64,000 bases of DNA from an uncultured Gammaproteobacteria bacterium (GCA_964491475.1 CAZBFO010000002.1:277841-341840); one strand, 5' to 3'. Positions 6,540-42,900 are shown, numbered from the stretch's first letter. A program made the numbers and translations. Notes: generated from the sequence alone by a model not told the origin.

Positions 6540-8642
6540 ATGTCCCGCATCGACTACGAGAAGGAGCTCAACGAAGAACAGCTGGCCGCCGTCCGCGAGG
6601 GCGACGGCCCTTGCGTCGTGCTCGCCGGCGCCGGTTCGGGCAAGACGCGCACCATCGTCTACCGCGTCGCTTGGCTGATCGAGCACGGCGTCTCGCCGGA
6701 CTCGATTTTGCTTTTGACCTTCACCAACAAGGCGGCATCAGAAATGATGGGGCGCATCGGCAGCCTGCTGGGGTCCGAACTGCCCTTCGGTTCCGGCGGC
6801 GTCTGGGGCGGCACCTTCCATTCCGTCGCCAACCGTATCCTGCGCTCCTTTGCGGAACGCATCGGCTATACTTCGTCGTTCTCCATTCTCGATGACGAGG
6901 ACTCCCGCGACCTGATGAAGGCCTGCATGCGCGAGCTCGGCTTTGCCTCCGCCGACAAGCGCTTCCCCTCGCCGGCAGTCGTCCGCGACCTCATCAGCTA
7001 CGCCACCAACGCCATGAAGTCGCTGGAAGACGCCGTGGCCAAGAAGCACCCCAAGTTCGAGCCGCTGCTGCCCGACCTGCAGCGCATCGCCGAAGCCTAC
7101 GACGCCAAGAAGCGCAATTCCAACGCCATGGACTTCGACGACCTGCTCTCGAAGCTGTTCAAGCTGCTCTCCGCCGACGTCTCCGCGCGAGAACGCATCG
7201 CCGGGCGCTGGAAGTACGTGCTGGTCGACGAATACCAGGACACCAATCCGCTGCAGGCCTCGCTGGTCCGCCTGATGGTCGGTCCCGAGCAGAACCTCCT
7301 GGTGGTCGGCGACGACGCCCAGAGCATCTACTCCTTCCGCGCCGCCGACGTGCGCAACATCTTGGATTTTCCCAAGCAGTACCCGGGCTCCAAGATGTTC
7401 AAGCTGCTCACCAACTATCGCTCCGTCCCCGAAATCCTCAACCTGGCCAACGACGTCATCTCGCGCAACGTCGACCAGTTCCACAAGGAGTTGGTCAGCG
7501 TCAAAAAGCCGTTTCACAAGCCGGCCGTGGTGCCTTGCCCGTCCTCGTTCCAGGAAGCCGACTTCGTGGTCGGCAAGATCCGCGACCTGATCGAAGAGGG
7601 CGTGAAGCCGGAGGCGATAGCCGTGCTGTTCCGCGCCACGCATCACTCGCAGACCGTCGAATTCGAACTGATGAAGCGCGGCATCGCCTACGACTACCGC
7701 GGCGGCGTGAAGTTCTTCGACCGCGCCCACGTCAAGGACGCGCTGTCGTTCCTGCGCATCAAGAACAACTTCAACGACGAAGCCGCCTGGCTGCGCATCC
7801 TCACCATTCAGCCGGGAGTGGGGGAGGTGATGGCCGCCAAGATGCTGACCATGTTCCGCGCCGCCGGCAGCTTGGCGCACGCCGTGCTTTCACCGGTCGA
7901 GGCCGCGCTCGGCGCCCGCGCCGCCAAGGGCTGGGCTGAACTGCGCCCCACCTTGGAAAAACTGGTCGAGCAGCAGAAGCCCATGGACATCATCCGCACC
8001 GTCACCAAATCCGGCTACGTCGACTATCTCGAGAACGAGTATCCCAACTGGCGCGAGCGCCTTGAGGACATCGAGCAGCTCGCCGTCTTCGCCGAAGAGT
8101 ACGAGACCGCTTCGGAACTGCTGGCCGACATCGCCCTCGACTCCGGTGCCGCCGAGAAGCAGTCCAACCGCGGCCGCCAGCGCCGCGACGTGGCCGACAA
8201 GGTGGTGCTCTCCACCATCCACCAGGCCAAGGGCTTGGAGTGGGACGCCGTCTTCGTCATCCATCTCACCAACTCCGGCTTCCCCAACCGCAAGGCCGCC
8301 ATGGAAGAGGGCGGCATCGAGGAAGAGCGTCGCCTGTTCTACGTGGCCGTGACCCGTTCCAAGAAGCATCTTTATCTTTCGTATCCCGCCACAGCCGGTC
8401 GCGACATGTTCACGCTGGAACAACCGTCGATCTTCCTGGAAGAGGCCAACCCGAAGATGCTCGACCTCTCGCTGGTCGAAGGCCGTCTCGGCTTTGGCGG
8501 CAGCGGTCACTCCTTCGATGACAGCGACAGCGGTGGCTTCTACGAAGACAACGCAGTTTCCGTCGACGACTCCGAAAACCCCTTTGCCGAGATGAAGTCC
8601 AAGGTAAAGAAGATCAAGCGGAGCTATCTCCGCGACGTGTGA
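6540..8642 (+). CDS. uvrD: ATP-dependent DNA helicase, UvrD/PcrA (superfamily 1) family
   Basis: Walker A (GAGSGKTRT), motifs II (VLVDEYQDTN) and III onward, and a C-terminal UvrD_C region (VVLSTIHQAKGLEWDAVFV...LFYVAVTRSKKHLYLS). Confidence 0.9.
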   Translation: MSRIDYEKELNEEQLAAVREGDGPCVVLAGAGSGKTRTIVYRVAWLIEHGVSPDSILLLTFTNKAASEMMGRIGSLLGSELPFGSGGVWGGTFHSVANRILRSFAERIGYTSSFSILDDEDSRDLMKACMRELGFASADKRFPSPAVVRDLISYATNAMKSLEDAVAKKHPKFEPLLPDLQRIAEAYDAKKRNSNAMDFDDLLSKLFKLLSADVSARERIAGRWKYVLVDEYQDTNPLQASLVRLMVGPEQNLLVVGDDAQSIYSFRAADVRNILDFPKQYPGSKMFKLLTNYRSVPEILNLANDVISRNVDQFHKELVSVKKPFHKPAVVPCPSSFQEADFVVGKIRDLIEEGVKPEAIAVLFRATHHSQTVEFELMKRGIAYDYRGGVKFFDRAHVKDALSFLRIKNNFNDEAAWLRILTIQPGVGEVMAAKMLTMFRAAGSLAHAVLSPVEAALGARAAKGWAELRPTLEKLVEQQKPMDIIRTVTKSGYVDYLENEYPNWRERLEDIEQLAVFAEEYETASELLADIALDSGAAEKQSNRGRQRRDVADKVVLSTIHQAKGLEWDAVFVIHLTNSGFPNRKAAMEEGGIEEERRLFYVAVTRSKKHLYLSYPATAGRDMFTLEQPSIFLEEANPKMLDLSLVEGRLGFGGSGHSFDDSDSGGFYEDNAVSVDDSENPFAEMKSKVKKIKRSYLRDV

Positions 8643-8811
8643 CCCTGACCGGGCGACCGTTGACAAAAGGCCCGTTTCGTGATACGTTTCCTCTCGTACC
8701 CAAAAAGGCGAAAAACGGATATTTTCCCTAACTGAAGGCAAAAAACGAATGAGCCGGCTCCGGCGTGAGCTGGTCTTTTTTCTTCTGAAAATGTAATTTT
8801 TGTTTCCGGCA

Positions 8812-8822
8812 GCTGTAGTAGT
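8812..8822 (+). repeat. 11-bp direct repeat GCTGTAGTAGT, copy 1, upstream of the ECF sigma gene
   Basis: An exact 11-mer is shared with 10201-10211. The two copies flank the sigma/co-transcribed-membrane-protein module. Confidence 0.4.
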
Positions 8823-8854
8823 AGAGACCAGTAACGGCTAACCTCGGAGAGGCA

Positions 8855-9418
8855 ATGCAAGAGCAAACAGACGAGGAAATCGTTGTGCAGGTCCAAAAGG
8901 GGGACGTGGAGGCCTTTGGCGCGCTGATGAAGCGCTATGAGCCGAAACTGACGCGATATGCGCGAAAATTCCTCCTGGACGGCGGCGACGCCGAGGATTT
9001 GGTGCAGGAGGCCTTCATCAAGGCCTACATGAACGTGCGGGGCTTCGACCCTGCACGTCGTTTCTCGCCATGGATCTACCGCATCGCGCATAACGTCTTC
9101 ATCAACGCCATCAAGAAGCGCGGCACGGACAGGGTATCCTTCTTCAACCTCGACCTCGTCTTTCCCCACGCGGCGGCAAAGGAGACCGCCGACGACGAGA
9201 CGCAGAAGCGGGAACTGCGCGAAACGCTCGATGCGCACTTGGGCAAGCTGGACCGGAAGTACCGCGAACCGATCGTCCTCTACTTTTACGAAGACATGGA
9301 TTACCAGGGCATAGCCGAAACGCTGCAGATACCGGTATCCACCGTTGGCGTGCGGCTGCAAAGGGGCAAGGCGCTGCTCAAGAAGATCGCGGAAAAAAAC
9401 GAAGCGACGGCACTATGA
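8855..9418 (+). CDS. RNA polymerase sigma-70 factor, ECF subfamily
   Basis: Sigma-70 region 2 (DAEDLVQEAFIKAYMNVRGFD...FSPWIYRIAHNVFINAIKKR) and region 4 (GIAETLQIPVSTVGVRLQRGKALL). A GGAGAGG RBS precedes the ATG. Confidence 0.85.
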   Translation: MQEQTDEEIVVQVQKGDVEAFGALMKRYEPKLTRYARKFLLDGGDAEDLVQEAFIKAYMNVRGFDPARRFSPWIYRIAHNVFINAIKKRGTDRVSFFNLDLVFPHAAAKETADDETQKRELRETLDAHLGKLDRKYREPIVLYFYEDMDYQGIAETLQIPVSTVGVRLQRGKALLKKIAEKNEATAL

Positions 9419-10182
9419 ACCAACCCCAAAACGACAATCAGACGCTCGAGGACAAGGTGCTCGAGGCCATTCGGTGCGGTGACGTGCGGATGAAGCCGCG
9501 CTGGTTCTTCGCGCTGCGTGCGGTGCTGCTCGGCACGGGCATCACCATCCTGCTGTTCGCGTCGCTTTTCATCGGCAGCTTCATCGTGTTTTCGCTGCGC
9601 CAGACCGGTCTGTGGTTCGCGCCATCCTACGGCCTGCGCGGGACCTATCTGTTCCTGCGGGCGGTGCCGTGGGTGCTGGTGGCCCTCTCGGCGCTGTTCG
9701 TAGTCGTGCTGGAGCTGATGGTCCGGCATTACTCCTTCGCCTATCGGGCACCGCTGGCCTATTCGTTGCTCGGCGTGATGGGACTGGTCGGCTTCGGCGC
9801 GGTCATCGTGGCCCAGACGCCGCTGCACGGCAGGATTTTCATCTATACCCGCGGTCACGACGCCATGCCCTTTGCCGCGTTTTATCGCAGCTACCTGGTG
9901 CATGGAGACCGCGTCTATCACGGCCAGGTCGTCAGCTCCGGCCAAGGGGTGTTCGTCATAAAGACTTTTCCCGAGGGCATCAGCGCCACCGTCGCTCCCG
10001 ACAGGGACGACGCCGATCAGGACTTTACCGGCACGCAGGTCATCATCTTCGGCAATGAGCGCGACGGCATCATCCGTGCCGAGGAGATTCATCGGGCGCC
10101 GGCCGTGGAGATGTTCGAGGACGAAATGACGCCCGATCCCTATGATTTCGGTCCCCTCAACGCTCCGACCTACGTGCAATGA
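9415..10182 (+). CDS. Multi-TM membrane protein translationally coupled to the ECF sigma factor (putative anti-sigma factor)
   Basis: An ATGA overlap with the sigma gene stop indicates translational coupling. Polytopic membrane protein with no recognised zinc-finger anti-sigma motif. Confidence 0.5.
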   Translation: MNQPQNDNQTLEDKVLEAIRCGDVRMKPRWFFALRAVLLGTGITILLFASLFIGSFIVFSLRQTGLWFAPSYGLRGTYLFLRAVPWVLVALSALFVVVLELMVRHYSFAYRAPLAYSLLGVMGLVGFGAVIVAQTPLHGRIFIYTRGHDAMPFAAFYRSYLVHGDRVYHGQVVSSGQGVFVIKTFPEGISATVAPDRDDADQDFTGTQVIIFGNERDGIIRAEEIHRAPAVEMFEDEMTPDPYDFGPLNAPTYVQ

Positions 10183-10200
10183 AATAATTTCCCGATGACC

Positions 10201-10211
10201 GCTGTAGTAGT
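10201..10211 (+). repeat. 11-bp direct repeat GCTGTAGTAGT, copy 2, downstream of the co-transcribed membrane protein gene
   Basis: Exact match to 8812-8822, 19 nt after the stop at 10182. Confidence 0.4.
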
Positions 10212-10592
10212 CTGTGCGGAGGGCAAAAAAGCGGATCACCCGGTTCGCAAAGCCCGCCCGCACGGTCTCCCTAACCCATGACGACACGTCGTCCGCGTTG
10301 CATGTCGCGTTCGGCGGCTCGTCATCCGAAGTCCCCGTCGCGGGCGCAGCGAATTCCTCTCCCGCGAGGCCCGCGGCCGGGATCTCGGCACCATTTTTAC
10401 GAGAGGGCTCTTTCCTTCACTCTTAACGCTTGTTCGCCGATGAAGCACTTCCGCAGCTAGGCAGACAATTCGTCAACAGACACGGTCCTCATCCGCCTCA
10501 CGTCCGGATGGGGGCTTTTCTTTTGCGCACCCCGCAGGCAAAAGAAAGGGGGGTTGGTGCGGAGGGGGACGGTCGCGGCAAAACGTCGTTTG

Positions 10593-10626
10593 TAAAAGAA
10601 AAACCCTCCGACGTACGTCGGAGGGG
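10593..10626 (-). terminator. Rho-independent terminator downstream of the metallophosphoesterase gene
   Basis: The perfect 22-nt palindrome CCCTCCGACG-TA-CGTCGGAGGG is preceded on the + strand by GAAAAA, which is a U-run on the - strand transcript. Confidence 0.6.
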
Positions 10627-10643
10627 AGGGTGCCCTCAATGCG

Positions 10644-12554
10644 TCACTTGTGACGCTTGGGGCTGCGGTTGGTCTTGCGTTTCTTGGACTGCTTCTTGCG
10701 CGACGAGGTCTTTGCCGCGCCGACGCCGGCGCTTCTGGGGCGCTTCTTGCACTGGCCGTGCCAGGCGCCGTTCACGATGTTGATCAGCTGACGCTGACCG
10801 TTCGCGAAAATGAGCGCGTGGGTGTGGGTCCACTTGGTGCGCGGACCATTTACGTAGTGCTCGGTCAGGTGCGTGCAGGTGCCGACGCGCCAGACCGGTC
10901 CGAGGATGGCTGCGGAATGGTTGTGGCCGACGATCGTCCACTGGTTCCACTCGCGGTAGGCGTTCATCGAGGACGAACGCGCGCCGCTGGGACCGACGTC
11001 CCCGTGGAAGGAGCAGTTGATCTTCTTGGCCTCCGGCCCTTCCGGCAGCAGGAGGACGTCCTGCCGGCCGTAGGTCTTGGCGAACGGCGCATTCCGGTCG
11101 ATCCAGAACTTGACCGGGTCTTCCGCGGAGATCTCGTGGCTCTCCGGAGCGCGCTTCATCAGGTCCTCCTGCAGGTCCGCGAAAAGGCGGGCGCAGAAGG
11201 TGATGTTGACGGGCTCGCTGAACCACTTCTTGCTCTCGAGGTAACGCCCCAAGAACTCGTTGTGGTTGCTGGCGATGATGCGCAGGACCGCCTTGGGCAG
11301 CTGCGCGTGCATCCACTTGAGCTCTCCGACCATGTAGTCCAGCTCCGCCTTGACCGAGTCCGTTCCCGTGGCGCCCTTGTAGGCGCGCCGCGAGGCGTTC
11401 TGGTCGTCCCAGTGCGAGATGCTGTTCCCGTCGAACAGGTCGCCGAGGATGACATTTTTCGGTCCCAGCCTCTGGAGCATCTGGCTATCGCCGAAGGTGA
11501 TGTGCCGGACGTCCGGGTGCGTCTTGCCGGCGTGGTAGTCCCCCAGGTAGGCGGTGTCCACGTCGTCGGGCCGGTGCTCGATCTTCTCGGGCGTCACGAA
11601 GATTGCGCCGCCGCGGAGAGGATCGATGTCATAGAACTCGCCGGTCGAGGTGGCCAGGAGCTGCCGGTAGTGGAACGTCTTCTTGCTGGAGAACTCCAGC
11701 ACGATGGCCGCGTAGGTGTGCTCCGCCGCCGCGATTGCGCCGGTGCGGTCCTGCTGGCCGAGGTTGTCCACGTTGTAGTTCGGGTTGGTCACCGCGCCGC
11801 AGGTCATCGCCGCCTTCGGGTAGTCGTGCATCAGCCGGGGCAGATGCATGAGTTCCAGCTTGGGCGAGGCGAAGATCTGCGAGGTGTTGTACCCCCGTTG
11901 ACCCACCGCGGCGGAAATGAAGCGCATGAGCGTGGGGCGCAGGCGCATCGTGTTCAGGTTGATCATGCCGTTGGCGAGGAGGGTGTCCTCGAACAGCATG
12001 TGTCCCTTGAGCCGCTCGTCGAAGGTCGAGAGCAGCACGCGGCGGTCGAGCTCCTTCTGGTAGACGGTCTTGATCGCGCCGTACTTGATCGGGAGCACCA
12101 CCAGCTCGTACCCCATGTGCTGGGCGTAGCGCTTGAACGCCCGCCAGACTTCCACGTTCAGCGTCGCGCCGAACTGGGCGGCCGTCACGATGAGGCCCTT
12201 GGGGTTGCAGAGCTTGTCGGTGTCGATGCGGAACTCCGCCAGCTGCTCCAGGACGCCCTGGGGCACGCCGATGATGGTGCCGTCCTTGCCCTTGCGAAGG
12301 ATCAGCTCCGGAAGGTTCAGGTCCGGATGTTCCTGCTGGAACTTCCGGTACCGCTTGACCTTGTCGTTCAGCGCGCGCCGCTTGTCCTTGATGTCGCTGT
12401 TGGGGTAGAGCACCCGCAGCAGGTCGTGCATCAGCGGACAGACCTTGTGGTTGTTGTATACCTTGGCGAAGTCGCGCAATTCGCGCACGACTTCCTGCAG
12501 GCGCTGGCCCTTGTGCTTGCCTTGCGGCTTCTCATTATCCATGACTGACTCCAA
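10644..12554 (-). CDS. Large (636 aa) multidomain protein. The C-terminal half is a complete calcineurin-like metallophosphoesterase. The N-terminal ~330 aa is unassigned, and there is a Lys/Arg-rich C-terminal tail.
   Basis: All five metallophosphoesterase motifs are present: GDYHAG, GDLFDGN, SNHNE(F), FHGD and GHNH. The N-terminus has no P-loop or other motif I recognise. The tail is CKKRPRS...SRKKQSKKRKTNRSPKRHK. GC3 is high. The gene is isolated between low-coding spacers with a terminator hairpin immediately downstream. Confidence 0.75.
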   Translation of the reverse strand: MESVMDNEKPQGKHKGQRLQEVVRELRDFAKVYNNHKVCPLMHDLLRVLYPNSDIKDKRRALNDKVKRYRKFQQEHPDLNLPELILRKGKDGTIIGVPQGVLEQLAEFRIDTDKLCNPKGLIVTAAQFGATLNVEVWRAFKRYAQHMGYELVVLPIKYGAIKTVYQKELDRRVLLSTFDERLKGHMLFEDTLLANGMINLNTMRLRPTLMRFISAAVGQRGYNTSQIFASPKLELMHLPRLMHDYPKAAMTCGAVTNPNYNVDNLGQQDRTGAIAAAEHTYAAIVLEFSSKKTFHYRQLLATSTGEFYDIDPLRGGAIFVTPEKIEHRPDDVDTAYLGDYHAGKTHPDVRHITFGDSQMLQRLGPKNVILGDLFDGNSISHWDDQNASRRAYKGATGTDSVKAELDYMVGELKWMHAQLPKAVLRIIASNHNEFLGRYLESKKWFSEPVNITFCARLFADLQEDLMKRAPESHEISAEDPVKFWIDRNAPFAKTYGRQDVLLLPEGPEAKKINCSFHGDVGPSGARSSSMNAYREWNQWTIVGHNHSAAILGPVWRVGTCTHLTEHYVNGPRTKWTHTHALIFANGQRQLINIVNGAWHGQCKKRPRSAGVGAAKTSSRKKQSKKRKTNRSPKRHK

Positions 12555-12817
12555 GTTGTGAGAGGACGACTGTTCGTCTGCTGGCTATGAAGGAGCGAAA
12601 GACGGTTTCATCCTCCGACCCGGACGGGCGCCGAAAGCGTTCGGCCGGGCCGGAGGAAGAGCGTCTTCAGGCCAATGGTAACAGTCGGGGAAGTGCCGTC
12701 AACGATTTTTTCGATGGTGTCAAGGGTGGATAACGGCCAGATTGCACTTGCCCCAAACGGGGCGATGCGTTAAGGTACGCCCGTATTTTTTGGGCCACAA
12801 AACGGCGCAAAAAGCAT

Positions 12818-13855
12818 ATGAAAACGGTCGAATCCGTCACCGAAGGCCATCCCGACAAAGTCTGCGACCAGATCGCCGACGCGATTTTGGATGCGTATTT
12901 GTCGCGCGATCCCGCCAGCAGGGTGGCCATCGAGGCGTTCGGTTCTCACGGTGCGCTGATGCTCGGAGGCGAAGTCTCTTCGACCGCCGAGGTCGATCCG
13001 GCGCAGATCGCCCTCCGCGTCTACCGCGAAATCGGCTATCAGGATGACTTGGAGGTGTTCACCAATATCGAGGAGCAGTCTCCGGACATCGCCCGCGGCG
13101 TGGACACCGGCGGTGCCGGTGACCAAGGCATCATGTACGGCTACGCCACCGGCGAGACGCCGGAATTTCTGCCGATGCCCGTGGTGCTGGCCCACCGTCT
13201 CGCTTGGGGCCTCACCAATCTCCGTCGCAACCACCCCGAGTTTTCCTGGCTGCGGCCCGACGGCAAGACCCAGGTGACTATGGACGGCGGCCGCGTCACG
13301 ACCGTGCTGGTGTCCGCGCAGCATCGCGAGGACATGGCCCAGGCGGAGATGCGCAAGCTGATCGTCCAGCATCTCATCGGCCCGACCATCGGCGAGACCG
13401 CCGACGTGAAAGTGCTGTTCAACCCCACCGGCGCTTTCGTTCGCGGCGGTTTCTCGGCCGACACTGGCCTTACCGGTCGCAAGCTGATGGTCGACACCTA
13501 CGGCGGTCTTATTCCCCATGGCGGGGGAGCCTTCTCCGGCAAGGATCCGACCAAGGTCGACCGCTCCGGCGCCTACATGGCGCGCTTCGCCGCCAAGAAC
13601 CTGGTAGCCAACGGCATCGCCAAGAACTGCCTGGTGTCGGTGGCCTACGCCATCGGCAAGGAGGAGCCGGTGATGCTCCGCGCCGTTTCCGGGGAAGGCA
13701 AGGACGTTTCCGACTACCTCAAGACGCACTTCGACTTTCGTCCTCGCGCCATCATGGAGCGCCTGTCGTTGCGACGTCCCATTTACCGGCAAAGTGCCGC
13801 CTACGGCCATTTTGGCCGCGACGAGTTCCCGTGGGAACACATCGCGTTGCAGTAA
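12818..13855 (+). CDS. metK: S-adenosylmethionine synthetase (unusually short, 345 aa)
   Basis: N-terminal GHPDKVCDQIADAILDA and the GAGDQG flexible-loop motif are present. It is shorter than the typical 380-400 aa bacterial MetK. Confidence 0.9.
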   Translation: MKTVESVTEGHPDKVCDQIADAILDAYLSRDPASRVAIEAFGSHGALMLGGEVSSTAEVDPAQIALRVYREIGYQDDLEVFTNIEEQSPDIARGVDTGGAGDQGIMYGYATGETPEFLPMPVVLAHRLAWGLTNLRRNHPEFSWLRPDGKTQVTMDGGRVTTVLVSAQHREDMAQAEMRKLIVQHLIGPTIGETADVKVLFNPTGAFVRGGFSADTGLTGRKLMVDTYGGLIPHGGGAFSGKDPTKVDRSGAYMARFAAKNLVANGIAKNCLVSVAYAIGKEEPVMLRAVSGEGKDVSDYLKTHFDFRPRAIMERLSLRRPIYRQSAAYGHFGRDEFPWEHIALQ

Positions 13856-13884
13856 AGCCGGTCATGAATGGCCGGCTTTTCGTT
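13856..13884 (+). terminator. Rho-independent terminator after metK
   Basis: AGCCGGTCAT-GA-ATGGCCGGCT hairpin followed by TTTTCGTT. Confidence 0.55.
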
Positions 13885-13970
13885 ACTCGCATTGACACCG
13901 TCCCGTCGACCATTACAATGACCGCCTGCTTGTCGCAGGTCGCTCTTTCATATGGAGACCCGGAGGGCAC

Positions 13971-15032
13971 ATGTGGTCCGAGATCATCTTGTGGATCGTG
14001 GGACTGATGGAGTTCCTCATTTGCTTCTATTTCTGCGCTTACATCGCGTTGTACGCGGTTCCCTGGGGGGAGTTGCGGGAAAAACGCGACATCAGCCGTG
14101 GCATTGCCATGCGCCTGCCCGCGTTGCGGGCGCGCACGCGGCACGCCGCCAAACGGGCGGCCGCCGCGCCGCTGATTCGAAATCCCGTTCACTTGCGCGT
14201 GCTGTGCGGTCAGATGACCGACGATATCGTCGATCTTTCCGCGCATTGCGTCAGGCTGGTGGGGACCATCGAGCGCGAACACCGCACGTGGCCGCGCGAA
14301 ATGCTGTTGCTCGAGGACGTCTTGAGCAGGACGCTCGAGGTGCTGGAACGGACCTGCGCCATGCGCAACGCGCAGCTGCCCGTTCTTGCCAAGGCCTACG
14401 CGAAGATGGCCGCAGCGCGGATTTTGCACGTGGACGCCATGCGCCAGCACCTGCTGGCGCGGATCGACGCGCTTGCCTCTTCCGGCGCCTGCTACGACCG
14501 CGAGCGGCATTGCCTGACCATGCTCGGCAACGCCTTGCAGGCCCACGGGCAGATTGCCGAAAGCGATCCGGCACGGGTCATCGAAGTGTCGTTCAGGTGG
14601 GTCGCGCGCCTGAAGCTCGTCGCCGAGTCGATCGAGTTACGGGCGGTCGCCCAGCGGCGCCTGGCAGAGGTGCGTGCCGAGTTTCCGGAACGCGCCGAAC
14701 GGGTGCGCATGCTGTTAGGTTCGGTGCAGACGCTGTTGCCGGTGTTGCGGACGACCTCGGCACACAAGAGCGTCGCCCTGCGCATGGTGGTGCTTGAGTC
14801 TGCCGAACAGGGCATCGCCCAAGCGGAGCGGGAGCTTTCGCTGGCCGAAGCGTTCTGCCGCACCTCCGGCGTCGACTTGGGAGCGTCGGGGCAAAGCGGC
14901 CGAGGTTTGGCCGAAGCCCTGCGGTCCGCCGCGCGGGCTCATGCCACCTTGTCGGGTTTCGAGGACGATCTGGCCTTCATCGCCGCGATCGCGGCGGCAA
15001 ACAAGGGGGAGGATTCCGGCGAAGTGAACTGA
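13971..15032 (+). CDS. Hypothetical protein with an N-terminal TM helix and an Ala/Arg-rich helical body
   Basis: A GGAGGG RBS lies 5 nt upstream of the ATG. GC3 is high and a terminator follows at 15037-15062. No recognisable domain. Confidence 0.5.
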   Translation: MWSEIILWIVGLMEFLICFYFCAYIALYAVPWGELREKRDISRGIAMRLPALRARTRHAAKRAAAAPLIRNPVHLRVLCGQMTDDIVDLSAHCVRLVGTIEREHRTWPREMLLLEDVLSRTLEVLERTCAMRNAQLPVLAKAYAKMAAARILHVDAMRQHLLARIDALASSGACYDRERHCLTMLGNALQAHGQIAESDPARVIEVSFRWVARLKLVAESIELRAVAQRRLAEVRAEFPERAERVRMLLGSVQTLLPVLRTTSAHKSVALRMVVLESAEQGIAQAERELSLAEAFCRTSGVDLGASGQSGRGLAEALRSAARAHATLSGFEDDLAFIAAIAAANKGEDSGEVN

Positions 15033-23463: not shown

Positions 23464-25128
23464 TCACCGTTTGGCGCGGAAGGTCTGCATGTTGGCGTCG
23501 AACTGCGCCTTTTGCTCGGCCGTCAACATTCCCGGACCCTTGGGATTGTAACCGCCTTCCACCTCCCGGCCGTCTCCGAAGCCGTCACCGTCGGTGTCGG
23601 CCTTGAGAGGGTCGGTGCCGTAGACGTAGATTTCTTCTCCATCGGAAAGGCCGTCGAGGTCGGTGTCGGCGACGTTGGGGTTGGTGTTATAGACCATGGT
23701 CTCCTGCTCGTCGGACACGCCGTCGCCGTCGGTGTCGGCAGAAGGAGCGGCATCCGTTTGCGGGGCTTCGGCAGGAAGGGGATTCGACGGCGACGGCTGT
23801 TGTTCGGGGACGTTCGTCGCCGATGGCGGGGCGGGCACTGTCGTGGTGACGGTCTTTTCGTCCGGCGGTACCGTCGTCGGCTGCGGAGCCACGTCGAAGC
23901 CGTTGAGGCTAAGCGTATGGGGTCCTTTTGCGAAAGCCAGTACGCCCTGCTCCAGGGTGAAGCTGATGACGAAGGTCAGGTCCCGTTTCTGGTAACCGTA
24001 CCCAGGACCGTCGGGGTCCTTCGGTACCGTCTTCAGGTACCTTGGCGAAAGCTGGTCGAGCGAATCCGGATACGCCTTGTTGTCGCTGAACCAGCTGCCT
24101 AGCGCCAGCTTGATCATGTTCACGTCACCGTAACGCTGCAAGTCGCGTTCTTCGGGGGTGCTGGCGTACTTGGGAGGGGCGGTGACGGGCGCCGCCGAAG
24201 GTTCCCTGGCCTGCCGCTCGCCGAACGGGGCGTTGACGCTGATCTTGGTGAGGTCCGCAAGGTTGAACTTGGCGCGAGTCAGGAAGAAAACCGGCAGGGC
24301 TATGATGCCGACGAGACAAAACGCGCCGAGCGCCGCCAGGATGCGGTAGAAAAGCTTGCGCGAGGGCTTGACCGTCCATTCTTTTCCCACGACGGCCACG
24401 CAGTCCTCGTAGAACGTCTGCAGGTAGATGAGGTAGAAGGGGGAGAACAGCGCCGCGAACAGCCAACTTGCGGCCGAGGCCGCCGGCGAGACGAGTGCGG
24501 GCTTCGTGACCCAAGCTGCCGCCGCAGCGATGCCGCTGAACGCCAGGCCGATGATGCCGCCCATGACGGCAAGTCCCAACTGGTCGAAGAGCAGCGTAGT
24601 CGTGCGGCCGTATATCAGGTCGCGGCTTCGGGCCAGTGCCTCGACGCCCTTGCGGCGTTCATTGATGACGACGTAAACGGTTAACGTGAACCGGACGGCC
24701 ATTATCACCGCCGGGACGATCAGAAGGGAGGGCAGGAAGATGACCAATGAAAAAACAAACGTCGTGAAGATACCGGGAAGCAAGGAACCCAGACCTCGGC
24801 TGAAAGCCCTGCCGAATCGGAGTTCTCCGGCGGCGACCGCCACCAGCACGTAGGGTGCCAGCAAAGACGCCACAAAGCCGACGATGCCCAGGCCTGCAGC
24901 GGGGGCGGCCGGCAGATGGCCGCGCATCGCGGCCAATATGATGGAGGGCAGGCCGGTGACGCCGCTGATGAGCACGAACATGCCTAGCGAGGCCCGATAC
25001 CGTATGAAGGTCCTGTGCAGCCTGTCCTTCATCGGCGGAAAGATCACGGGCTTCACGAAGCCAACCGACGGCGCGGCTGGCACCGGCTGTGCGGGTTGTG
25101 CCGGAGTCACGATGGGTTCGGCTGGCAT
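23464..25128 (-). CDS. Chimeric membrane protein, paralog B: a polytopic N-terminal TM domain, a type IV pilin-like globular domain and three C-terminal TSP3-like Asp-rich calcium-binding repeats
   Basis: Six to eight TM helices in the first ~300 aa. Pilin-like motif ERDLQRYGDVNMIKLALGSWFSDNKAYPDSL...YLKTVPKDPDGPGYGY. C-terminal DTDGDGVSDEQE...DTDLDGLSDGEE...DTDGDGFGDGRE. Confidence 0.65.
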   Translation of the reverse strand: MPAEPIVTPAQPAQPVPAAPSVGFVKPVIFPPMKDRLHRTFIRYRASLGMFVLISGVTGLPSIILAAMRGHLPAAPAAGLGIVGFVASLLAPYVLVAVAAGELRFGRAFSRGLGSLLPGIFTTFVFSLVIFLPSLLIVPAVIMAVRFTLTVYVVINERRKGVEALARSRDLIYGRTTTLLFDQLGLAVMGGIIGLAFSGIAAAAAWVTKPALVSPAASAASWLFAALFSPFYLIYLQTFYEDCVAVVGKEWTVKPSRKLFYRILAALGAFCLVGIIALPVFFLTRAKFNLADLTKISVNAPFGERQAREPSAAPVTAPPKYASTPEERDLQRYGDVNMIKLALGSWFSDNKAYPDSLDQLSPRYLKTVPKDPDGPGYGYQKRDLTFVISFTLEQGVLAFAKGPHTLSLNGFDVAPQPTTVPPDEKTVTTTVPAPPSATNVPEQQPSPSNPLPAEAPQTDAAPSADTDGDGVSDEQETMVYNTNPNVADTDLDGLSDGEEIYVYGTDPLKADTDGDGFGDGREVEGGYNPKGPGMLTAEQKAQFDANMQTFRAKR

Positions 25129-38829: not shown

Positions 38830-38850
38830 CGCCCGTGCTTGGACGGGAAG

Positions 38851-38859
38851 TGCTATACT
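38851..38859 (+). promoter_or_regulatory. Extended -10 element TGCTATACT for giant surface protein C
   Basis: The ATG at 38869 is 10 nt downstream. Confidence 0.45.
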
Positions 38860-38868
38860 TTTCGCGGT

Positions 38869-41800
38869 ATGCCAGCCAAAAAGACCCGGTCGCGAAAATC
38901 GTCCAAACCGTCGGCGGAGCACGGCGACTCCGTCCTGTTGCGATTGGCCGTCGGGGCGGTCCTGCTGGGCATGGTCTGGGCCGCAGTTCCGCTGGCGAAA
39001 GCGCTGACCACCACCATCACTTCCGTCGTCGATCAGGCGTTTTCGGCGGCGGTGACCGCGCCGTCGTCAGGCTCGACCATCAGCGGAACGGTGCCGTTGG
39101 AGGCGCGGGTCGCGGCTGCGGCGAGTTCGGGGATATTCACGCTTTCCGGCGGTCCGAACGGTTTGCAACAGCCCATACAGGGCACGCAAGACGCTTCGGA
39201 CGCGCTGAAGTGGACGGCCAAGCTTGATGCTTCCGTGCTTGTTGCCGGCACCTATGCCCTGGGATTTTCCGCCGTGCGCGCCGTCGACGGGCTGACAGCC
39301 AGTTCGCCGCAGATTTCCCTGATCGTCGCCGATCAGGCGCCGGCCAAGTACGTCATCACCTTCGTGTCGCCCAGATCGGGCTCAACGGTATCCGGCACTG
39401 TCGCGCTCACGGCCGGCGTGAACCTGGCAGCTGACTCGCTGACCTACGTCGTCACGCCCGTAGCCGGCGGGGGATTGGTAGAGTTGAAGTCGTCTTTTGA
39501 CGGCACGAACGGCACTTGGGTCGGCAGCTGGAATACCGCCGAATTTCCGAATGGCACCTATACCGTGGTGCCCCACGCCTTTCACGCCGCCGTGATGGAA
39601 GTGGGCGACCCCGTTACCTTGACCGTCAGCAATGCCGCTCCGCCTCCGACCTTCACCGCGACCGTGCGGACGCCCGCCTCGGGCAGCGCGCTGAAGGGCA
39701 TCGTGACGTTCAGCTCCGTCACCAACCTGGCCGCCACCGGCCTTGCCTATGTCGTGACCGATGCCGGCGGCGCGCCTGTCGCTTCGCTGAACGCCGCTCC
39801 TTCTAACGGCAGCCTGCAATGGGACGCGACTTGGGACACGACGGCAGTATCCAACGGCACCTATTCGCTCAAGGCCACCTCGATCCGTACGGGCGCGCAG
39901 GCGGAGGCCGGCCCGGTTTCCTTCACGATCGCCAACCAGGCCGCGTCGACGTTATTGACCGTCCTGATGGCCGCGCCGGCCAAGGGCGCGGTGGTCTCTG
40001 GCAGCGTGCAGGTGTACGCGCAGACTTCCCTGGCGGCAGACAGCCTTTCCTTCACCATCACCCAGACTTTCGGCAGCAAGCACGTCACGCAGCTTGCGGC
40101 GGCAGGAGGTCCGACCTCCTGGTATGCCGCCTGGGATTCTTCGGCATTGGAGCCGGGGGCCTACCTCATTCACGCCACGGCCCTGAAGGGCACGGGAACG
40201 AACGTGAGCGACGACGTCGCTTTCAGCGTCACGGCGCCGTCCGCCGGATCGCCGACGCCGGTCTCCGCTGCCGTCAACGTCACGGTGCCGGTTTCGGGCG
40301 CGACGGTCGCCGGTCAGATGAGCCTGGCTGCGCGCACGGACTCCGCCGTGGACCTCGCCGGGTTTGAGTTGCGCAACGCCGTCGCGCCGGACGCGGCGCC
40401 TGTCGCCACGGTGGCTGCCAGCGGAGCCGACGGCGGTACCTCGTGGACGGCGACGATGAACACTACCGCCATTCCCGACGGCGAATACGTGGTGGTGGCC
40501 GTCGTGACCCGCAACGGCGTGAAAGCCTCCAGCGCGGCCGTTCCCGTGCATTTGAAGAATCTCACCAGCGGCCAGGCGGCCGTGCCCTCTTTTGAAATCC
40601 GATCGCCCGCGCCCGGCGCCTCGGTCTCCGGCATCGTGCCTTTCTACGCCTCATCCTCGGCCGCCATCGACGGGCTGGCCTTCATTCTTCAGGGGCCGAC
40701 AGTACCCGGCAGCAGGATGGCGTTGCCGGCTACCGGCAACGCCGAAAAGACCGCATGGACGGTCAATTGGAATTCCGGAACGGTGCCCGACGGCAGCGTC
40801 TCCCTGTCGGCCGTGGCTTCGAAATCGGGACATGAGTCCGAGGGGGCGCCGCGCGCGTTCACGGTCGCCAACGGCGCTTCGGCCCCGGTGCAGCCTCCTC
40901 CGACCGCCACCGCGCCTCCGGCAGCGGCCACGACCTTCAAGGTGACCGTGGTCAATCCGGTGACCGGACAGATTTACGCCGGACAAGTGCCATTGGCCGC
41001 CGCCGTCGACGGCGGCACCGCGCTGAACGTGCGGTTCACCGTCGGTGCCGCGAGCGGCGGTGCCGTGGCGGACATCGACGCGCATTTCGATTCGAAGACC
41101 AAGCGCTGGGTGGCGCTCTGGAAGCCAGACGCCGCCGCAACCGGCACTTACGTCGTGACGGCGACGGCCCAAAATACCAGAGGCCAGACGGCGCAAAGCG
41201 AAAGGGTCAAAGTGCTTTTCGGCGCTTCTAGGCCGGGGGAGCCAGCCGCGCCCGGATCGCCGCCGTCGCCGCCGGAGGTGCCGAAGCCCGTCGTTTCGGG
41301 AGAAAAAGCGGCGCTCATCGTGAAAATCTCCTCGCCTGTCGCTTCGTCGGTATTGCGCGGACCGGCGGTACTTGCCGCAGACGCAGAGGGCGCGGCTGAA
41401 GTCGGTTTCGCCATCCGCCCGATCAAAGAAGGGGAGGCGACGACTCGACGCGCGGCCAGCGACGGAACGCGCTGGGTCGCTTATCTCGACACCACGGCAA
41501 TTCCTGACGGCGATTACGAAATCGAAGCTTCGGCCGTCGACGCCGCCGGCAATCGCGCGGTCTCGCAGCGTCTGCCTTTCGGCGTGCGCAACGCGGGCGG
41601 CGGGGCGCCCGTGAGCAGGGTGGACGTCGTGCCTCCCGCGGCAGTAGTCGCTTCGGTGCTCGAACGGCCGCAAGGATCCGTCTCGCTTTCCGCCGATCCG
41701 CTGCCGCAGTCCGTTTCGGACGCGACCGACCAGCTCAATGCCGACTGCATCGCCAGGAAAGTTCCCGCCGAGAGGTGTTCCGAATGGTTGGCTCGGCAGT

Positions 41801-42900
41801 CGGAGCGGCAGGAATGCGCGGCCGCCGGCATCGTCACCAAGGAAGAGTGCCTTGCCTATCTGAAATCCAAGCGCGGCGGACAGGTGGCAGCCTGCGAAGG
41901 CCGCACCGACGAAGACTGCGCCAAAGTCGTGGCCATCGCCACCGCCGACCTGATCTTTGACGCCGACCTGCGCGCTTTGCGCGACGCTGCCTTGCAGAAC
42001 GTGGGACGGGTGCTGCAAATGCCCCCGCGCGGCAAGCAGGCAGCAGGCGGCGGGGACATTCCTCCGGCGCCGCCCGGATTGGCAGACCTTTCGCCTTTCG
42101 CGGGAGAAGCGCCGGTGAACGTCGGCTTGCACGCCTCGCCCGGTTTCGGCACGACCGACGGCAACGTCGCCCATCAGAACCTGCCGGCCTTCGTAATGGT
42201 CGACACCGACGGTGACAACTTGCCGGACGACATCGAGCTCCGCCTGGGAACCGATCCGCGCAATCCCGATTCCGACGGCGACGGCTACAACGACGGCTTG
42301 GAAGTCGAACGCGGCTACAATCCGCTCGGTCCGGGGGCGCTTCTTGGGAACGTGACCTTGGCGCCGGTCGATCAGGCGGTCATCTCCGGCATTGCCATCG
42401 AGCAACCGACTGACGCGGGAACGGTCGCGCCTGACCTGAAGGTGGAGACGGCAGTCGCCCAAAAGGAAAAGGAAGGCACCTTCACCATCGGGGGCCGCGC
42501 CAAGCCGCACGACGTCGTGACGGTGTTCGTCTACAGCTACCTGCCGGTCGTGTTCACTACCGCCGCCAAGGACGACGGCACCTGGACCTACGATCTCGGA
42601 ACGGGCCTGGCCGACGGGCAGCACGAGGCCTACGCGACCGTGACCGACGACACGGGAAAGATTTCCGCCAAGAGCGAACCGCTGTCGTTCTTCGTCTCCG
42701 GCGCGAAGGCCGTGACGCAGGATGAATTCTTCAATCCCTCCTCGTCGCCGCTTTCCGCCGCGGCGGTGGCGGCACCCAGCCAGGCGCTGCTCGGCTGGTA
42801 CATCGGCGCAGTGGCGATGCTGATGGGCATCGCGCTGGTCGTCTCGTTCCTGCTGTTCATGCGGCCAAAAAAGAATCAGCCGCCTCCTCCGTCGCAATAG
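38869..42900 (+). CDS. Giant surface protein, paralog C (1343 aa). Domain order: signal/TM, about 9-10 tandem Ig-like domains, a Cys-rich module, TSP3-like Asp boxes, an Ig-like domain, a TM anchor and a Pro-rich tail.
   Basis: A repeated ~100-aa unit (P.SGS.VSGTV.L.A...L.YVVT...W....W.T....NGTY). The Cys module DCIARKVPAERCSEWL...ECAAAGIVTKEECLAYLKSKRGGQVAACEGRTDEDC is homologous to paralog A. DTDGDNLPDDIELRLGTDPRNPDSDGDGYNDG. TM helix WYIGAVAMLMGIALVVSFLLF followed by KKNQPPPPSQ. Confidence 0.8.
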   Translation: MPAKKTRSRKSSKPSAEHGDSVLLRLAVGAVLLGMVWAAVPLAKALTTTITSVVDQAFSAAVTAPSSGSTISGTVPLEARVAAAASSGIFTLSGGPNGLQQPIQGTQDASDALKWTAKLDASVLVAGTYALGFSAVRAVDGLTASSPQISLIVADQAPAKYVITFVSPRSGSTVSGTVALTAGVNLAADSLTYVVTPVAGGGLVELKSSFDGTNGTWVGSWNTAEFPNGTYTVVPHAFHAAVMEVGDPVTLTVSNAAPPPTFTATVRTPASGSALKGIVTFSSVTNLAATGLAYVVTDAGGAPVASLNAAPSNGSLQWDATWDTTAVSNGTYSLKATSIRTGAQAEAGPVSFTIANQAASTLLTVLMAAPAKGAVVSGSVQVYAQTSLAADSLSFTITQTFGSKHVTQLAAAGGPTSWYAAWDSSALEPGAYLIHATALKGTGTNVSDDVAFSVTAPSAGSPTPVSAAVNVTVPVSGATVAGQMSLAARTDSAVDLAGFELRNAVAPDAAPVATVAASGADGGTSWTATMNTTAIPDGEYVVVAVVTRNGVKASSAAVPVHLKNLTSGQAAVPSFEIRSPAPGASVSGIVPFYASSSAAIDGLAFILQGPTVPGSRMALPATGNAEKTAWTVNWNSGTVPDGSVSLSAVASKSGHESEGAPRAFTVANGASAPVQPPPTATAPPAAATTFKVTVVNPVTGQIYAGQVPLAAAVDGGTALNVRFTVGAASGGAVADIDAHFDSKTKRWVALWKPDAAATGTYVVTATAQNTRGQTAQSERVKVLFGASRPGEPAAPGSPPSPPEVPKPVVSGEKAALIVKISSPVASSVLRGPAVLAADAEGAAEVGFAIRPIKEGEATTRRAASDGTRWVAYLDTTAIPDGDYEIEASAVDAAGNRAVSQRLPFGVRNAGGGAPVSRVDVVPPAAVVASVLERPQGSVSLSADPLPQSVSDATDQLNADCIARKVPAERCSEWLARQSERQECAAAGIVTKEECLAYLKSKRGGQVAACEGRTDEDCAKVVAIATADLIFDADLRALRDAALQNVGRVLQMPPRGKQAAGGGDIPPAPPGLADLSPFAGEAPVNVGLHASPGFGTTDGNVAHQNLPAFVMVDTDGDNLPDDIELRLGTDPRNPDSDGDGYNDGLEVERGYNPLGPGALLGNVTLAPVDQAVISGIAIEQPTDAGTVAPDLKVETAVAQKEKEGTFTIGGRAKPHDVVTVFVYSYLPVVFTTAAKDDGTWTYDLGTGLADGQHEAYATVTDDTGKISAKSEPLSFFVSGAKAVTQDEFFNPSSSPLSAAAVAAPSQALLGWYIGAVAMLMGIALVVSFLLFMRPKKNQPPPPSQ
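39050..41270 (+). repeat. About 9-10 tandem ~100-aa Ig-like (Big-like) domain repeats (protein level) in surface protein C
   Basis: Recurrent SGSTVSGTV.L.A....AADSLTYVVT...W.A.WDT.A.PNGTY... units. The nucleotide sequences have diverged. Confidence 0.55.

What the first reader, a model, noticed from the sequence alone, without database searches (positions are those of the whole stretch)
10644..12554. Isolated 636-aa metallophosphoesterase with an uncharacterised 330-aa N-terminal region and a polybasic tail
The C-terminal half contains a complete calcineurin-like phosphoesterase motif set (GDYH, GDLFDGN, SNHNE, FHGD, GHNH). The N-terminal 330 aa matches no family I can recognise; it has no P-loop and no ligase or OB signature. 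The protein ends in a strongly basic KKRPRS...KRKTNRSPKRHK tail suggestive of nucleic-acid binding. The gene sits alone on the - strand between two spacers of 260-460 nt, divergent from metK. A strong terminator palindrome follows it, and next to it is the ECF sigma module that is itself bracketed by 11-bp direct repeats. The architecture is reminiscent of nucleic-acid end-processing enzymes such as Pnkp phosphatase modules, Mre11/SbcD-like nucleases or the PolD DP1-like PDE domain, but matches none of them. It is a candidate novel nucleic-acid phosphoesterase or a defence/repair factor.
Basis: partly seen in the sequence, partly recalled or inferred. Interest (0 to 1): 0.6.

Follow-up and report, generated by a model that had tools for sequence, protein, structure and literature searches.

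The report
Phage T5 A1-like nuclease in Patescibacteria
The "orphan" phosphoesterase is a chromosomal relative of phage T5's A1 protein, the factor that destroys the host chromosome during infection; it is kept as a stand-alone accessory gene in a lineage of tiny Patescibacteria and carries an extra DNA-binding-type basic tail.

Summary
The ORF is real. Its likely start is the ATG at 12542, giving 632 aa. The five metallophosphoesterase (MPE) motifs, polybasic tail, flanking spacers, terminator and divergent metK are all confirmed.

It is not an unrecognisable family. PHROGs assigns residues 118-598 to phrog_1745, the T5 A1 "DNA transfer protein" (E=1e-86). About 1,100 phage genomes encode homologues, and a profile finds about 2,300 clusters.

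The window is a Uhrbacteria/Parcubacteria-like chromosome. The gene occupies the same uvrD-metK slot in six genomes, shows purifying selection, the best codon adaptation in the window and a conserved promoter. It is absent from three sister genomes, so it is an accessory gene in a variable hotspot. The nearest outside relatives include jumbo-phage proteins.

The polybasic tail, which follows a KxRP(K/R)SAG motif, is specific to this clade.

Most likely it is a phage-derived, metal-dependent DNase acting on foreign or imported DNA. Its biological role is inferred, not shown.

Classification: a new variant of a known kind. Interest: moderate.

The parts
10644..12542 (-). A1-like gene: 632 aa plus stop, starting at the ATG at 12542.
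   Evidence: identical 632-aa public gene call. phrog_1745 E=1.2e-86. BLASTP to T5 A1 2e-24 over residues 115-594.
12207..12542 (-). N-terminal accessory domain, residues 1-112: helices plus a beta-hairpin. Carries the motif FAK(V/I)(Y/W)N(N/D)..YP..DLxR. Possibly a winged-helix DNA-binding domain (inference).
   Evidence: AF2 pLDDT 80-94. The motif is shared with jumbo-phage and other homologues. It is absent from most family representatives, which match only profile positions ~100-586.
11562..12206 (-). Middle domain, residues 113-327: a second metallophosphoesterase fold with degenerate metal-ligand motifs (VTAAQFG and LPIKYG in place of xDxHxG and GDxxD). It has its own invariant residues: Q123, R202, P203, P227, P254, Y256, H275, D305.
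10752..11561 (-). Catalytic metallophosphoesterase domain, residues 328-597, with complete motifs I-V (D335, H337, D368, N426, H427, H513, H540, H542).
10647..10751 (-). Clade-specific disordered C-terminal tail, residues 598-632: the conserved motif K-x-R-P-K/R-S-A-G followed by a variable K/R cluster.
   Evidence: pLDDT <50. Present in all P0001-P0020 and absent from more distant homologues. K599, R601 and A605 are invariant in the clade.
10594..10625 (-). Intrinsic terminator: 9-bp stem with 7 G-C pairs, followed by a T-run.
   Evidence: I5.
12675..12704 (-). Conserved sigma-70-type promoter block CGTTGACGGCACTTCCCCGACTGTTACCAT (-35 TTGACG, 16-17 nt spacer, extended -10 TG-n-TACCAT). A second TTGACA lies about 20 nt upstream.
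   Evidence: Nearly identical in L001 and L003 and recognisable in L011 and L014 despite 58-75% protein identity.
12543..12668 (-). Leader of about 125 nt with a stable 5' hairpin and the conserved CTCTCACAAC..GGAG just before the start codon. Its regulatory role is unproven.
   Evidence: Fold z=-3.6 in the window, weaker in the orthologous leaders. Alignment. No Rfam family.

Best explanation
The gene encodes a cellular, chromosomally resident member of the phage T5 A1 ('DNA transfer protein', phrog_1745) family.

Architecture (shown):
- an accessory helical N-domain (residues 1-112);
- a degenerate MPE-fold domain (113-327);
- a catalytically complete MPE domain (328-597);
- a disordered polybasic tail (598-632) found only in this Patescibacteria clade.

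Molecular mechanism (inferred from the family and the fold). The C-terminal domain uses a two-metal centre (D335/H337/D368/N426/H427/H513/H540/H542) to hydrolyse DNA phosphodiester bonds, as in Mre11/SbcD and PolD-DP1. The pseudo-MPE domain acts as a built-in 'second protomer' or DNA-positioning scaffold. The N-domain and the AT-hook-like basic tail hold the enzyme on DNA.

Origin (shown or strongly supported). The gene is phage-derived. Its nearest relatives outside the clade, at ~43-51% identity, include a jumbo-phage protein. It has been inherited vertically in the uvrD-metK slot of a Uhrbacteria/Parcubacteria-like lineage. It is under purifying selection, fully ameliorated, and has its own conserved promoter and terminator. 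It is lost or replaced in sister genomes, so it is an accessory gene in a variable hotspot.

Biological role (inference, about 40%). It is a DNase directed at non-self or linear DNA, meaning phage or imported DNA. It would serve defence, nucleotide salvage, or both, in an organism of a group that generally cannot make nucleotides de novo.
For: Family and fold:
- phrog_1745 E=1.2e-86 over residues 118-598.
- 1,092 phage records with A1 / DNA-transfer-protein hits.
- T5 A1 BLASTP 2e-24 over 480 residues.
- Full-length Foldseek matches to phage proteins, TM 0.67-0.80.
- AF2 models at pLDDT 90 and 87.
- All catalytic motif residues invariant.

Genomic setting:
- Cellular context.
- Same slot in L001, L002, L003, L011 and L014.
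- dN 0.17 and dN/dS 0.32, comparable with YceG and DUF2207; best codon fit in the window.
- Conserved promoter.
- Absent from L028, L029 and L030.
- Jumbo-phage context of the 46% homologue.
- Tail is clade-specific and a genome outlier.
- Other family members carry a Fis-type HTH or Zn-ribbon-like N-terminal add-ons.

Literature:
- T5 A1 is necessary and sufficient for host DNA degradation in vivo (bioRxiv 10.64898/2026.04.02.716235).
- Patescibacteria generally lack de novo nucleotide synthesis (PMC10633639).
Against: - No A1-family protein has yet been shown to be a nuclease in vitro. The T5 preprint says A1 might instead activate a host nuclease.
- Identity to T5 A1 is only 23%.
- There is no A2 partner.
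- There is no PADLOC defence model.
- There is no signal peptide or TM segment.
- How a constitutively promoted DNase would spare the cell's own chromosome is unexplained.
- In Saccharibacteria, comEC is not needed for fitness, which weakens the salvage idea.
- Only nine genomes were sampled for presence or absence.
Confidence: 0.7

Rival explanations
1. It is a decaying prophage remnant or selfish leftover with no function for the cell.
For: The family is overwhelmingly phage-borne. The gene sits in a variable slot and is missing from three sister genomes. It has no partner genes.
Against: The reading frame is intact and all catalytic residues are invariant across genomes with 58-78% identity. 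It keeps the same position while MetK diverges from 94% to 76%. dN/dS is 0.3, with dN similar to cellular genes, and its codon adaptation is the highest in the window. It has a conserved promoter and a strong terminator. No other phage genes lie nearby.
Confidence: 0.08
2. It is a DNA-repair end-processing nuclease, an Mre11/SbcD analogue, working with the neighbouring UvrD/PcrA helicase.
Against: No Rad50/SbcC-like partner and no capping domain. Unrelated, variable genes separate it from uvrD, and its orientation differs between genomes. Sister genomes keep the same uvrD (91% identical between the window and L001) but lack the gene. The upstream alignment shows only promoter-like elements and no evident operator.
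Confidence: 0.1
3. It is a phosphoesterase acting on a substrate other than DNA, for example a nucleotide or cyclic-nucleotide phosphodiesterase, an Ap4A hydrolase or a lipid pyrophosphatase. The DNA loss caused by T5 A1 would then be indirect.
Against: The family repeatedly acquires nucleic-acid-binding add-ons: the polybasic AT-hook-like tail, a Fis-type HTH and Zn-ribbon-like motifs. A1 alone is sufficient for chromosome degradation in E. coli. The longest structural alignment is to the DP1 proofreading exonuclease.
Confidence: 0.1

Closest known systems
Bacteriophage T5 A1 protein (YP_006832, 'DNA transfer protein', phrog_1745)
   Same: Homologous over the middle and C-terminal domains (residues 115-594 against T5 96-554, E 2e-24). 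Same complete MPE motif set and same tandem-domain core. No Pfam model recognises either protein.
   Different: Only 23% identity. It is chromosomal in a bacterium rather than a pre-early gene in a phage terminal repeat. It has no A2 partner and a different N-terminal ~110 aa. It adds a 35-aa polybasic tail that T5 A1 and most homologues lack.
Jumbo-phage A1-like proteins (e.g. Xanthomonas phage Xoo-sp13 'putative A1 protein'; metagenomic 270-kb phage contig Ga0540663_0000015)
   Same: Closest relatives found outside the clade: Xoo-sp13 aligns over residues 50-601, and P0042 is 46% identical. They share the N-terminal FAKIWN...DLER domain as well as the core.
   Different: They are phage-encoded. 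They end at G-x-W-H-G, with no KxRPKSAG motif or basic tail.
Mre11/SbcD and PolD DP1 nuclease domains
   Different: No capping domain, OB fold, or Rad50/SbcC/DP2 partner. Similarity is at the fold level only (10-16% identity). This protein instead has an intramolecular second MPE-like domain.
Vps29 and other catalytically inactive MPE-fold proteins
   Different: It is fused in cis to an active MPE domain. It is highly conserved, with its own invariant polar residues (Q123, R202, H275, D305), which suggests a functional surface.

Membership tests
Phage T5 A1 / phrog_1745 'DNA transfer protein' | Significant profile and sequence similarity spanning both the middle and the C-terminal domain | tested here: met
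   phrog_1745 E=1.2e-86, query 118-598 against profile 86-540/542. T5 A1 BLASTP 2e-24. 1,092 phage records.
Phage T5 A1 / phrog_1745 'DNA transfer protein' | Complete metallophosphoesterase motif set in the C-terminal domain | tested here: met
   D335, H337, D368, N426, H427, H513, H540 and H542 are invariant in 52 sequences. Positions.
Phage T5 A1 / phrog_1745 'DNA transfer protein' | Full-length structural correspondence to phage members | tested here: met
   Foldseek/BFVD: A0A6G6XXJ9 E 2e-41 with 606 aligned columns; phage pf16 protein TMt 0.80.
Phage T5 A1 / phrog_1745 'DNA transfer protein' | Encoded by a phage as a pre-early or early gene | tested here: not met
   Cellular chromosome with housekeeping neighbours and conserved synteny.
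Phage T5 A1 / phrog_1745 'DNA transfer protein' | Works with an A2 DNA-binding partner encoded nearby | tested here: not met
   No T5 A2 homologue in the window or the syntenic loci (tblastn). No conserved neighbour at all.
Phage T5 A1 / phrog_1745 'DNA transfer protein' | Causes degradation of cellular DNA; toxic when expressed alone | not testable with these tools
   Known for T5 A1 only. Needs an expression or biochemical assay.
Mre11/SbcD nucleases | MPE nuclease domain followed by a capping domain, with an adjacent Rad50/SbcC ATPase partner | tested here: not met
   Fold match is to the MPE core only, ~190 residues. The protein ends in a disordered tail right after the MPE domain. No SMC-like neighbour. 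No Pfam Metallophos or SbcD hit.
PolD DP1 / eukaryotic polymerase B-subunits | OB-fold N-terminal to the PDE domain, plus a catalytic DP2/polymerase partner | tested here: not met
Pnkp-type RNA repair enzymes | P-loop kinase plus MPE phosphatase plus ligase/adenylyltransferase domains | tested here: not met
Catalogued anti-phage defence systems (PADLOC 2.0) | Match to a defence-protein model, alone or with system partners | tested here: not met
   No PADLOC hit for the protein or its unannotated neighbours. The UvrD hits reflect generic superfamily similarity.

The most novel reading that the evidence does not exclude
An epibiotic Patescibacterium has captured a phage 'host-chromosome shredder' and repurposed it as a weapon or feeding tool. 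The clade-specific, positively charged C-terminal tail would act as a translocation signal, resembling type-IV-secretion substrate tails (my own recollection, not tested). Alternatively it would tether the enzyme to incoming DNA. Either way, the A1-like DNase would degrade the DNA of the bacterial host, or imported DNA, to supply nucleotides the symbiont cannot make. This would parallel T5's strategy of A1-dependent host-DNA degradation followed by nucleotide catabolism involving Dmp.
Probability: 0.07. Interest if true: 0.85.

Novelty: new variant of a known kind. Interest (0 to 1): 0.45.

Why it matters
**For phage biology.** T5 A1 is a 60-year-old puzzle: it is essential, drives host DNA destruction and second-step DNA transfer, and its biochemistry is still unproven. 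Two results here bear on it:
- The conserved A1 core is a tandem of a degenerate and an active metallophosphoesterase fold.
- Invariant residues can be listed for both halves, which gives concrete targets for mutagenesis.

**For Patescibacteria.** This turns a widespread "hypothetical protein" into a testable candidate DNase. It is phage-derived, stably inherited but dispensable, apparently well expressed, and carries a lineage-specific DNA-binding-type tail. That is relevant to defence, DNA uptake and nucleotide scavenging in organisms with minimal metabolism.

**In general.** It is an example of a toxic phage takeover gene being tamed by a cell. It raises the question of how self-DNA is spared.

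Tried and rejected
- **Sequence libraries:** Pfam, NCBIfam and PDB sequence searches of the full protein gave nothing significant. The N-terminal 116 aa alone also gave only noise in Pfam.
- **RNA families:** Rfam on 8000-14500 found no riboswitch or known RNA in either spacer, and no SAM riboswitch upstream of metK.
- **Defence models:** PADLOC had no defence model for the protein or its neighbours.
- **Internal duplication:** hhalign of the middle domain against the C-terminal domain found no sequence similarity, probability 0.15%. The tandem-MPE statement rests on fold only.
- **Conserved partner or operon:** rejected. The neighbours differ in every genome and there is no A2 homologue.
- **Core housekeeping gene:** rejected. 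The gene is absent from three sister genomes.
- **L030 704-aa ORF as a divergent A1:** rejected. tblastn found nothing and hhalign gave probability 0.4%.
- **Leader RNA as a conserved regulatory structure:** not supported with five sequences. Only the window's hairpin is clearly better than shuffles.
- **Metagenome scans:** the first found nothing and the second added only one close relative.
- **Failed or rejected calls:** the first homologue search timed out. One literature query was rejected for a term that was too short.
- **11-bp repeats around the ECF module:** they are present but compatible with chance.

Full report
**1. The observation**

The ORF 10644..12554(-) exists.
- The TTG start lies inside the ribosome-binding region. 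An ATG at 12542 has GGAG 8 nt upstream and gives 632 aa, identical to the public gene call P0001.
- The last 35 residues hold 16 K/R and no D/E. This is an outlier: the maximum among the 46 other ORFs scanned in the window is 10.
- The 461-nt and ~270-nt spacers, the divergent metK and a strong intrinsic terminator 19 nt after the stop codon are all as described.
- The protein has no TM segment or signal peptide.

**2. Family identity**

- PHROGs assigns residues 118-598 to phrog_1745, "DNA transfer protein", at E=1.2e-86.
- tblastn finds homologues annotated A1 or DNA transfer protein in 1,092 phage records. These are T5-like Demerecviridae and many others, and the best is Xanthomonas jumbo phage Xoo-sp13.
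- Direct BLASTP to T5 A1 gives 23% identity, E 2e-24, aligning residues 115-594 with T5 96-554.
- A profile of 52 homologues finds 2,288 representative clusters (50% identity level) among 1.84 billion proteins, 1,464 of them at E≤1e-30. Most match only profile positions ~100-586. So the conserved core is the middle plus C-terminal region, and the first ~100 residues are an accessory.

According to a 2026 preprint, T5 A1 is a predicted metallophosphatase that is essential, toxic, and necessary and sufficient for host-chromosome degradation in vivo. In-vitro nuclease activity has not yet been demonstrated, and A1 also affects second-step DNA transfer and transcription (10.64898/2026.04.02.716235).

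**3. Architecture**

An AlphaFold2 model built on the 52-sequence alignment is confident (pLDDT 90.4, pTM 0.84). Only residues ~600-632 are disordered.
- **Relationship between the two halves.** Profile-profile comparison finds no sequence similarity, so the relationship is at the fold level only.
- **Residues 1-112.** These form helices plus a β-hairpin. The FAK(V/I)(Y/W)N(N/D)…YP…DLxR motif is shared with jumbo-phage and other homologues. A winged-helix DNA-binding role is my inference, not a tested result.
- **Other family members.** Some carry a Fis-type HTH (P0043) or Zn-ribbon-like CxxC motifs (P0036, P0038) at the N-terminus.
- **Phage counterparts.** Foldseek against viral models gives full-length matches (606 aligned columns; TM up to 0.80), so the whole architecture is phage-type.

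I found no description of the tandem pseudo-MPE plus MPE core in the accessible literature.

**4. Genomic context**

The window is a cellular chromosome, not a phage.
- Its genes include GDP-mannose-type nucleotidyltransferase, MltG/YceG, DUF2207, PcrA/UvrD, an ECF sigma factor, MetK, ABC and MacB transporters, Dus, XseA, HhH-GPD glycosylases, PGI and large Ig-domain surface proteins.
- MetK relatives and named homologues place it among Patescibacteria, near "Ca. Uhrbacteria"/Parcubacteria.
- The A1-like gene lies between uvrD and metK in five further genomes whose A1-like proteins are 58-75% identical: L001, L002 (a complete 1.17-Mb genome), L003, L011 and L014. L011 shares a block of more than 20 kb with the window.
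- A1-like identity falls in step with MetK identity (75% at MetK 94%; 58% at MetK 76%), which indicates vertical descent.

Between the window and L001:

| Gene | dN | dN/dS |
|---|---|---|
| A1-like | 0.17 | 0.32 |
| YceG | 0.15 | 0.18 |
| DUF2207 | 0.26 | 0.21 |

- dS is compressed by the extreme GC3 (0.92).
- The gene fits the window's codon usage better than any other gene tested.
- A promoter-like block, CGTTGACGGCACTTCCCCGACTGTTACCAT, is almost identical in L001 and L003 and recognisable in L011 and L014.

The gene is not universal.
- Three sister genomes, chosen only by MetK identity (79-85%), lack it. L029 has uvrD directly followed by metK. L028 has unrelated genes. L030 has a different 704-aa protein with a weak hit to a phage exonuclease family.
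- The genes between uvrD and the A1-like gene differ in every genome, and there is no A2 homologue.
- The slot is therefore a variable hotspot, and the gene is a long-lived accessory gene.

**5. Origin**

- The homologue P0042 (46% identity) is on a 270-kb contig with a phiKZ-type multisubunit RNA polymerase and an endolysin, so it is a jumbo phage.
- P0066 (32%) is in a siphovirus or prophage.
- Other homologues are lone genes in cellular contexts: P0057 and P0028 in Patescibacteria-like contigs, and P0065 between fliQR and uvrC.
- The most economical reading is a phage-to-cell transfer followed by retention. A full phylogeny was not done.

**6. The tail**

- All 20 members of the close clade carry [Q/R]-x-K-x-R-[P/S]-[K/R]-S-A-G, a short linker and a K/R cluster, 12-51 aa in total.
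- Homologues below about 52% identity, including the phage-borne ones, end at G-x-W-H-G or carry only short, non-homologous C-terminal extensions without this motif.
- The tail is therefore an innovation of the chromosomal Patescibacteria clade.
- The K-x-R-P-K/R core resembles an AT-hook, which would mean minor-groove DNA binding. This is my inference.

**7. Mechanism and role**

- **Shown:** family membership, tandem MPE-fold architecture, an intact catalytic motif set, cellular accessory-gene status, purifying selection and the clade-specific tail.
- **Inferred:** two-metal hydrolysis of DNA phosphodiesters in the C-terminal domain. The pseudo-MPE domain would act as an intramolecular counterpart of the Mre11/SbcD dimer partner or as a DNA guide. 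The N-domain and tail would act as DNA tethers.
- **Role (inference, about 40%):** degradation of foreign or linear DNA, for defence and/or nucleotide salvage.
  - For: Patescibacteria generally lack de novo nucleotide synthesis (PMC10633639). The hotspot location and patchiness fit a conflict gene. The high codon adaptation and conserved promoter fit a well-expressed enzyme.
  - Open problems: how self-DNA is spared, and that A1 biochemistry is unproven.

**8. Rivals**

- **Inert prophage remnant:** disfavoured by conservation, amelioration and the conserved promoter.
- **Repair nuclease coupled to UvrD:** disfavoured by the variable intervening genes, the changing orientation, the lack of a Rad50/SbcC partner, and its absence from sister genomes that keep uvrD.
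- **Non-DNA phosphoesterase:** cannot be excluded without an assay.

**9. Verdict**

The interpretation as a new family with an unknown N-terminus is not. It is a new cellular variant of the known, though biochemically unresolved, phage A1 family. Two results may be useful to specialists: the tandem pseudo-MPE plus MPE core, and a Patescibacteria-specific tailed clade resident in a uvrD-metK hotspot. Interest is moderate (0.45).

Noticed in passing
L030:4655-6769 (-) (contig JAQTNC010000001): In a related genome, the same slot and orientation (divergent from metK) holds a different 704-aa ORF with no Pfam match. It is not A1-like by tblastn or hhalign, but it has a weak hit to phage exonuclease family phrog_284 (E 6e-6). 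This suggests the uvrD-metK hotspot repeatedly hosts phage-type nucleases.
   Followed up: partly
window 8812-8822 and 10201-10211; ECF pair at 8855-10182: An exact 11-nt direct repeat, GCTGTAGTAGT, brackets the ECF sigma/anti-sigma pair. That pair is absent from this slot in L001, L002, L003 and L011, so an insertion is plausible. The repeat alone is not significant, with about 0.6 expected by chance.
   Followed up: partly
window 12543-12730 (-): Upstream of the A1-like gene there are tandem TTGAC elements, a near-invariant promoter block and a ~125-nt leader. The leader has a stable hairpin (z = -3.6) and the conserved CTCTCACAAC..GGAG, which could pair with the Shine-Dalgarno sequence. No Rfam family matches. 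There were too few sequences to test covariation.
   Followed up: partly
P0007, P0008, P0011, P0013-P0016, P0018 (e.g. L002:10001-12265): A subset of the Patescibacteria clade (745-763 aa) carries an extra ~120-aa N-terminal extension, starting '..KTPREVVAAAA.AVCG..', with no Pfam match.
   Followed up: no
L006:10001-11674: A 35%-identical homologue is a lone chromosomal gene between flagellar export genes (fliQ/fliR) and uvrC on a 411-kb contig. This is another apparently domesticated copy outside Patescibacteria.
   Followed up: no
window 11520-11543 (residues 334-341, GDYHAGKT): MPE motif I and the following residues happen to match the Walker-A pattern [AG]x4GK[ST]. The family consensus is GDWHTGKT, but T5 A1 has GDIHAEKL. 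This is most likely coincidental rather than a P-loop.
   Followed up: partly
window 12818-13855: MetK here is a short (345-aa) form typical of this lineage. No SAM riboswitch or other Rfam element lies in its 5' region.
   Followed up: yes
window 38839-42900 and 23464-25128: There are large Ig-domain/TSP3-repeat surface proteins, one of them 1,353 aa. They are typical of Patescibacteria cell-surface or adhesion proteins. They are unrelated to the finding.
   Followed up: no
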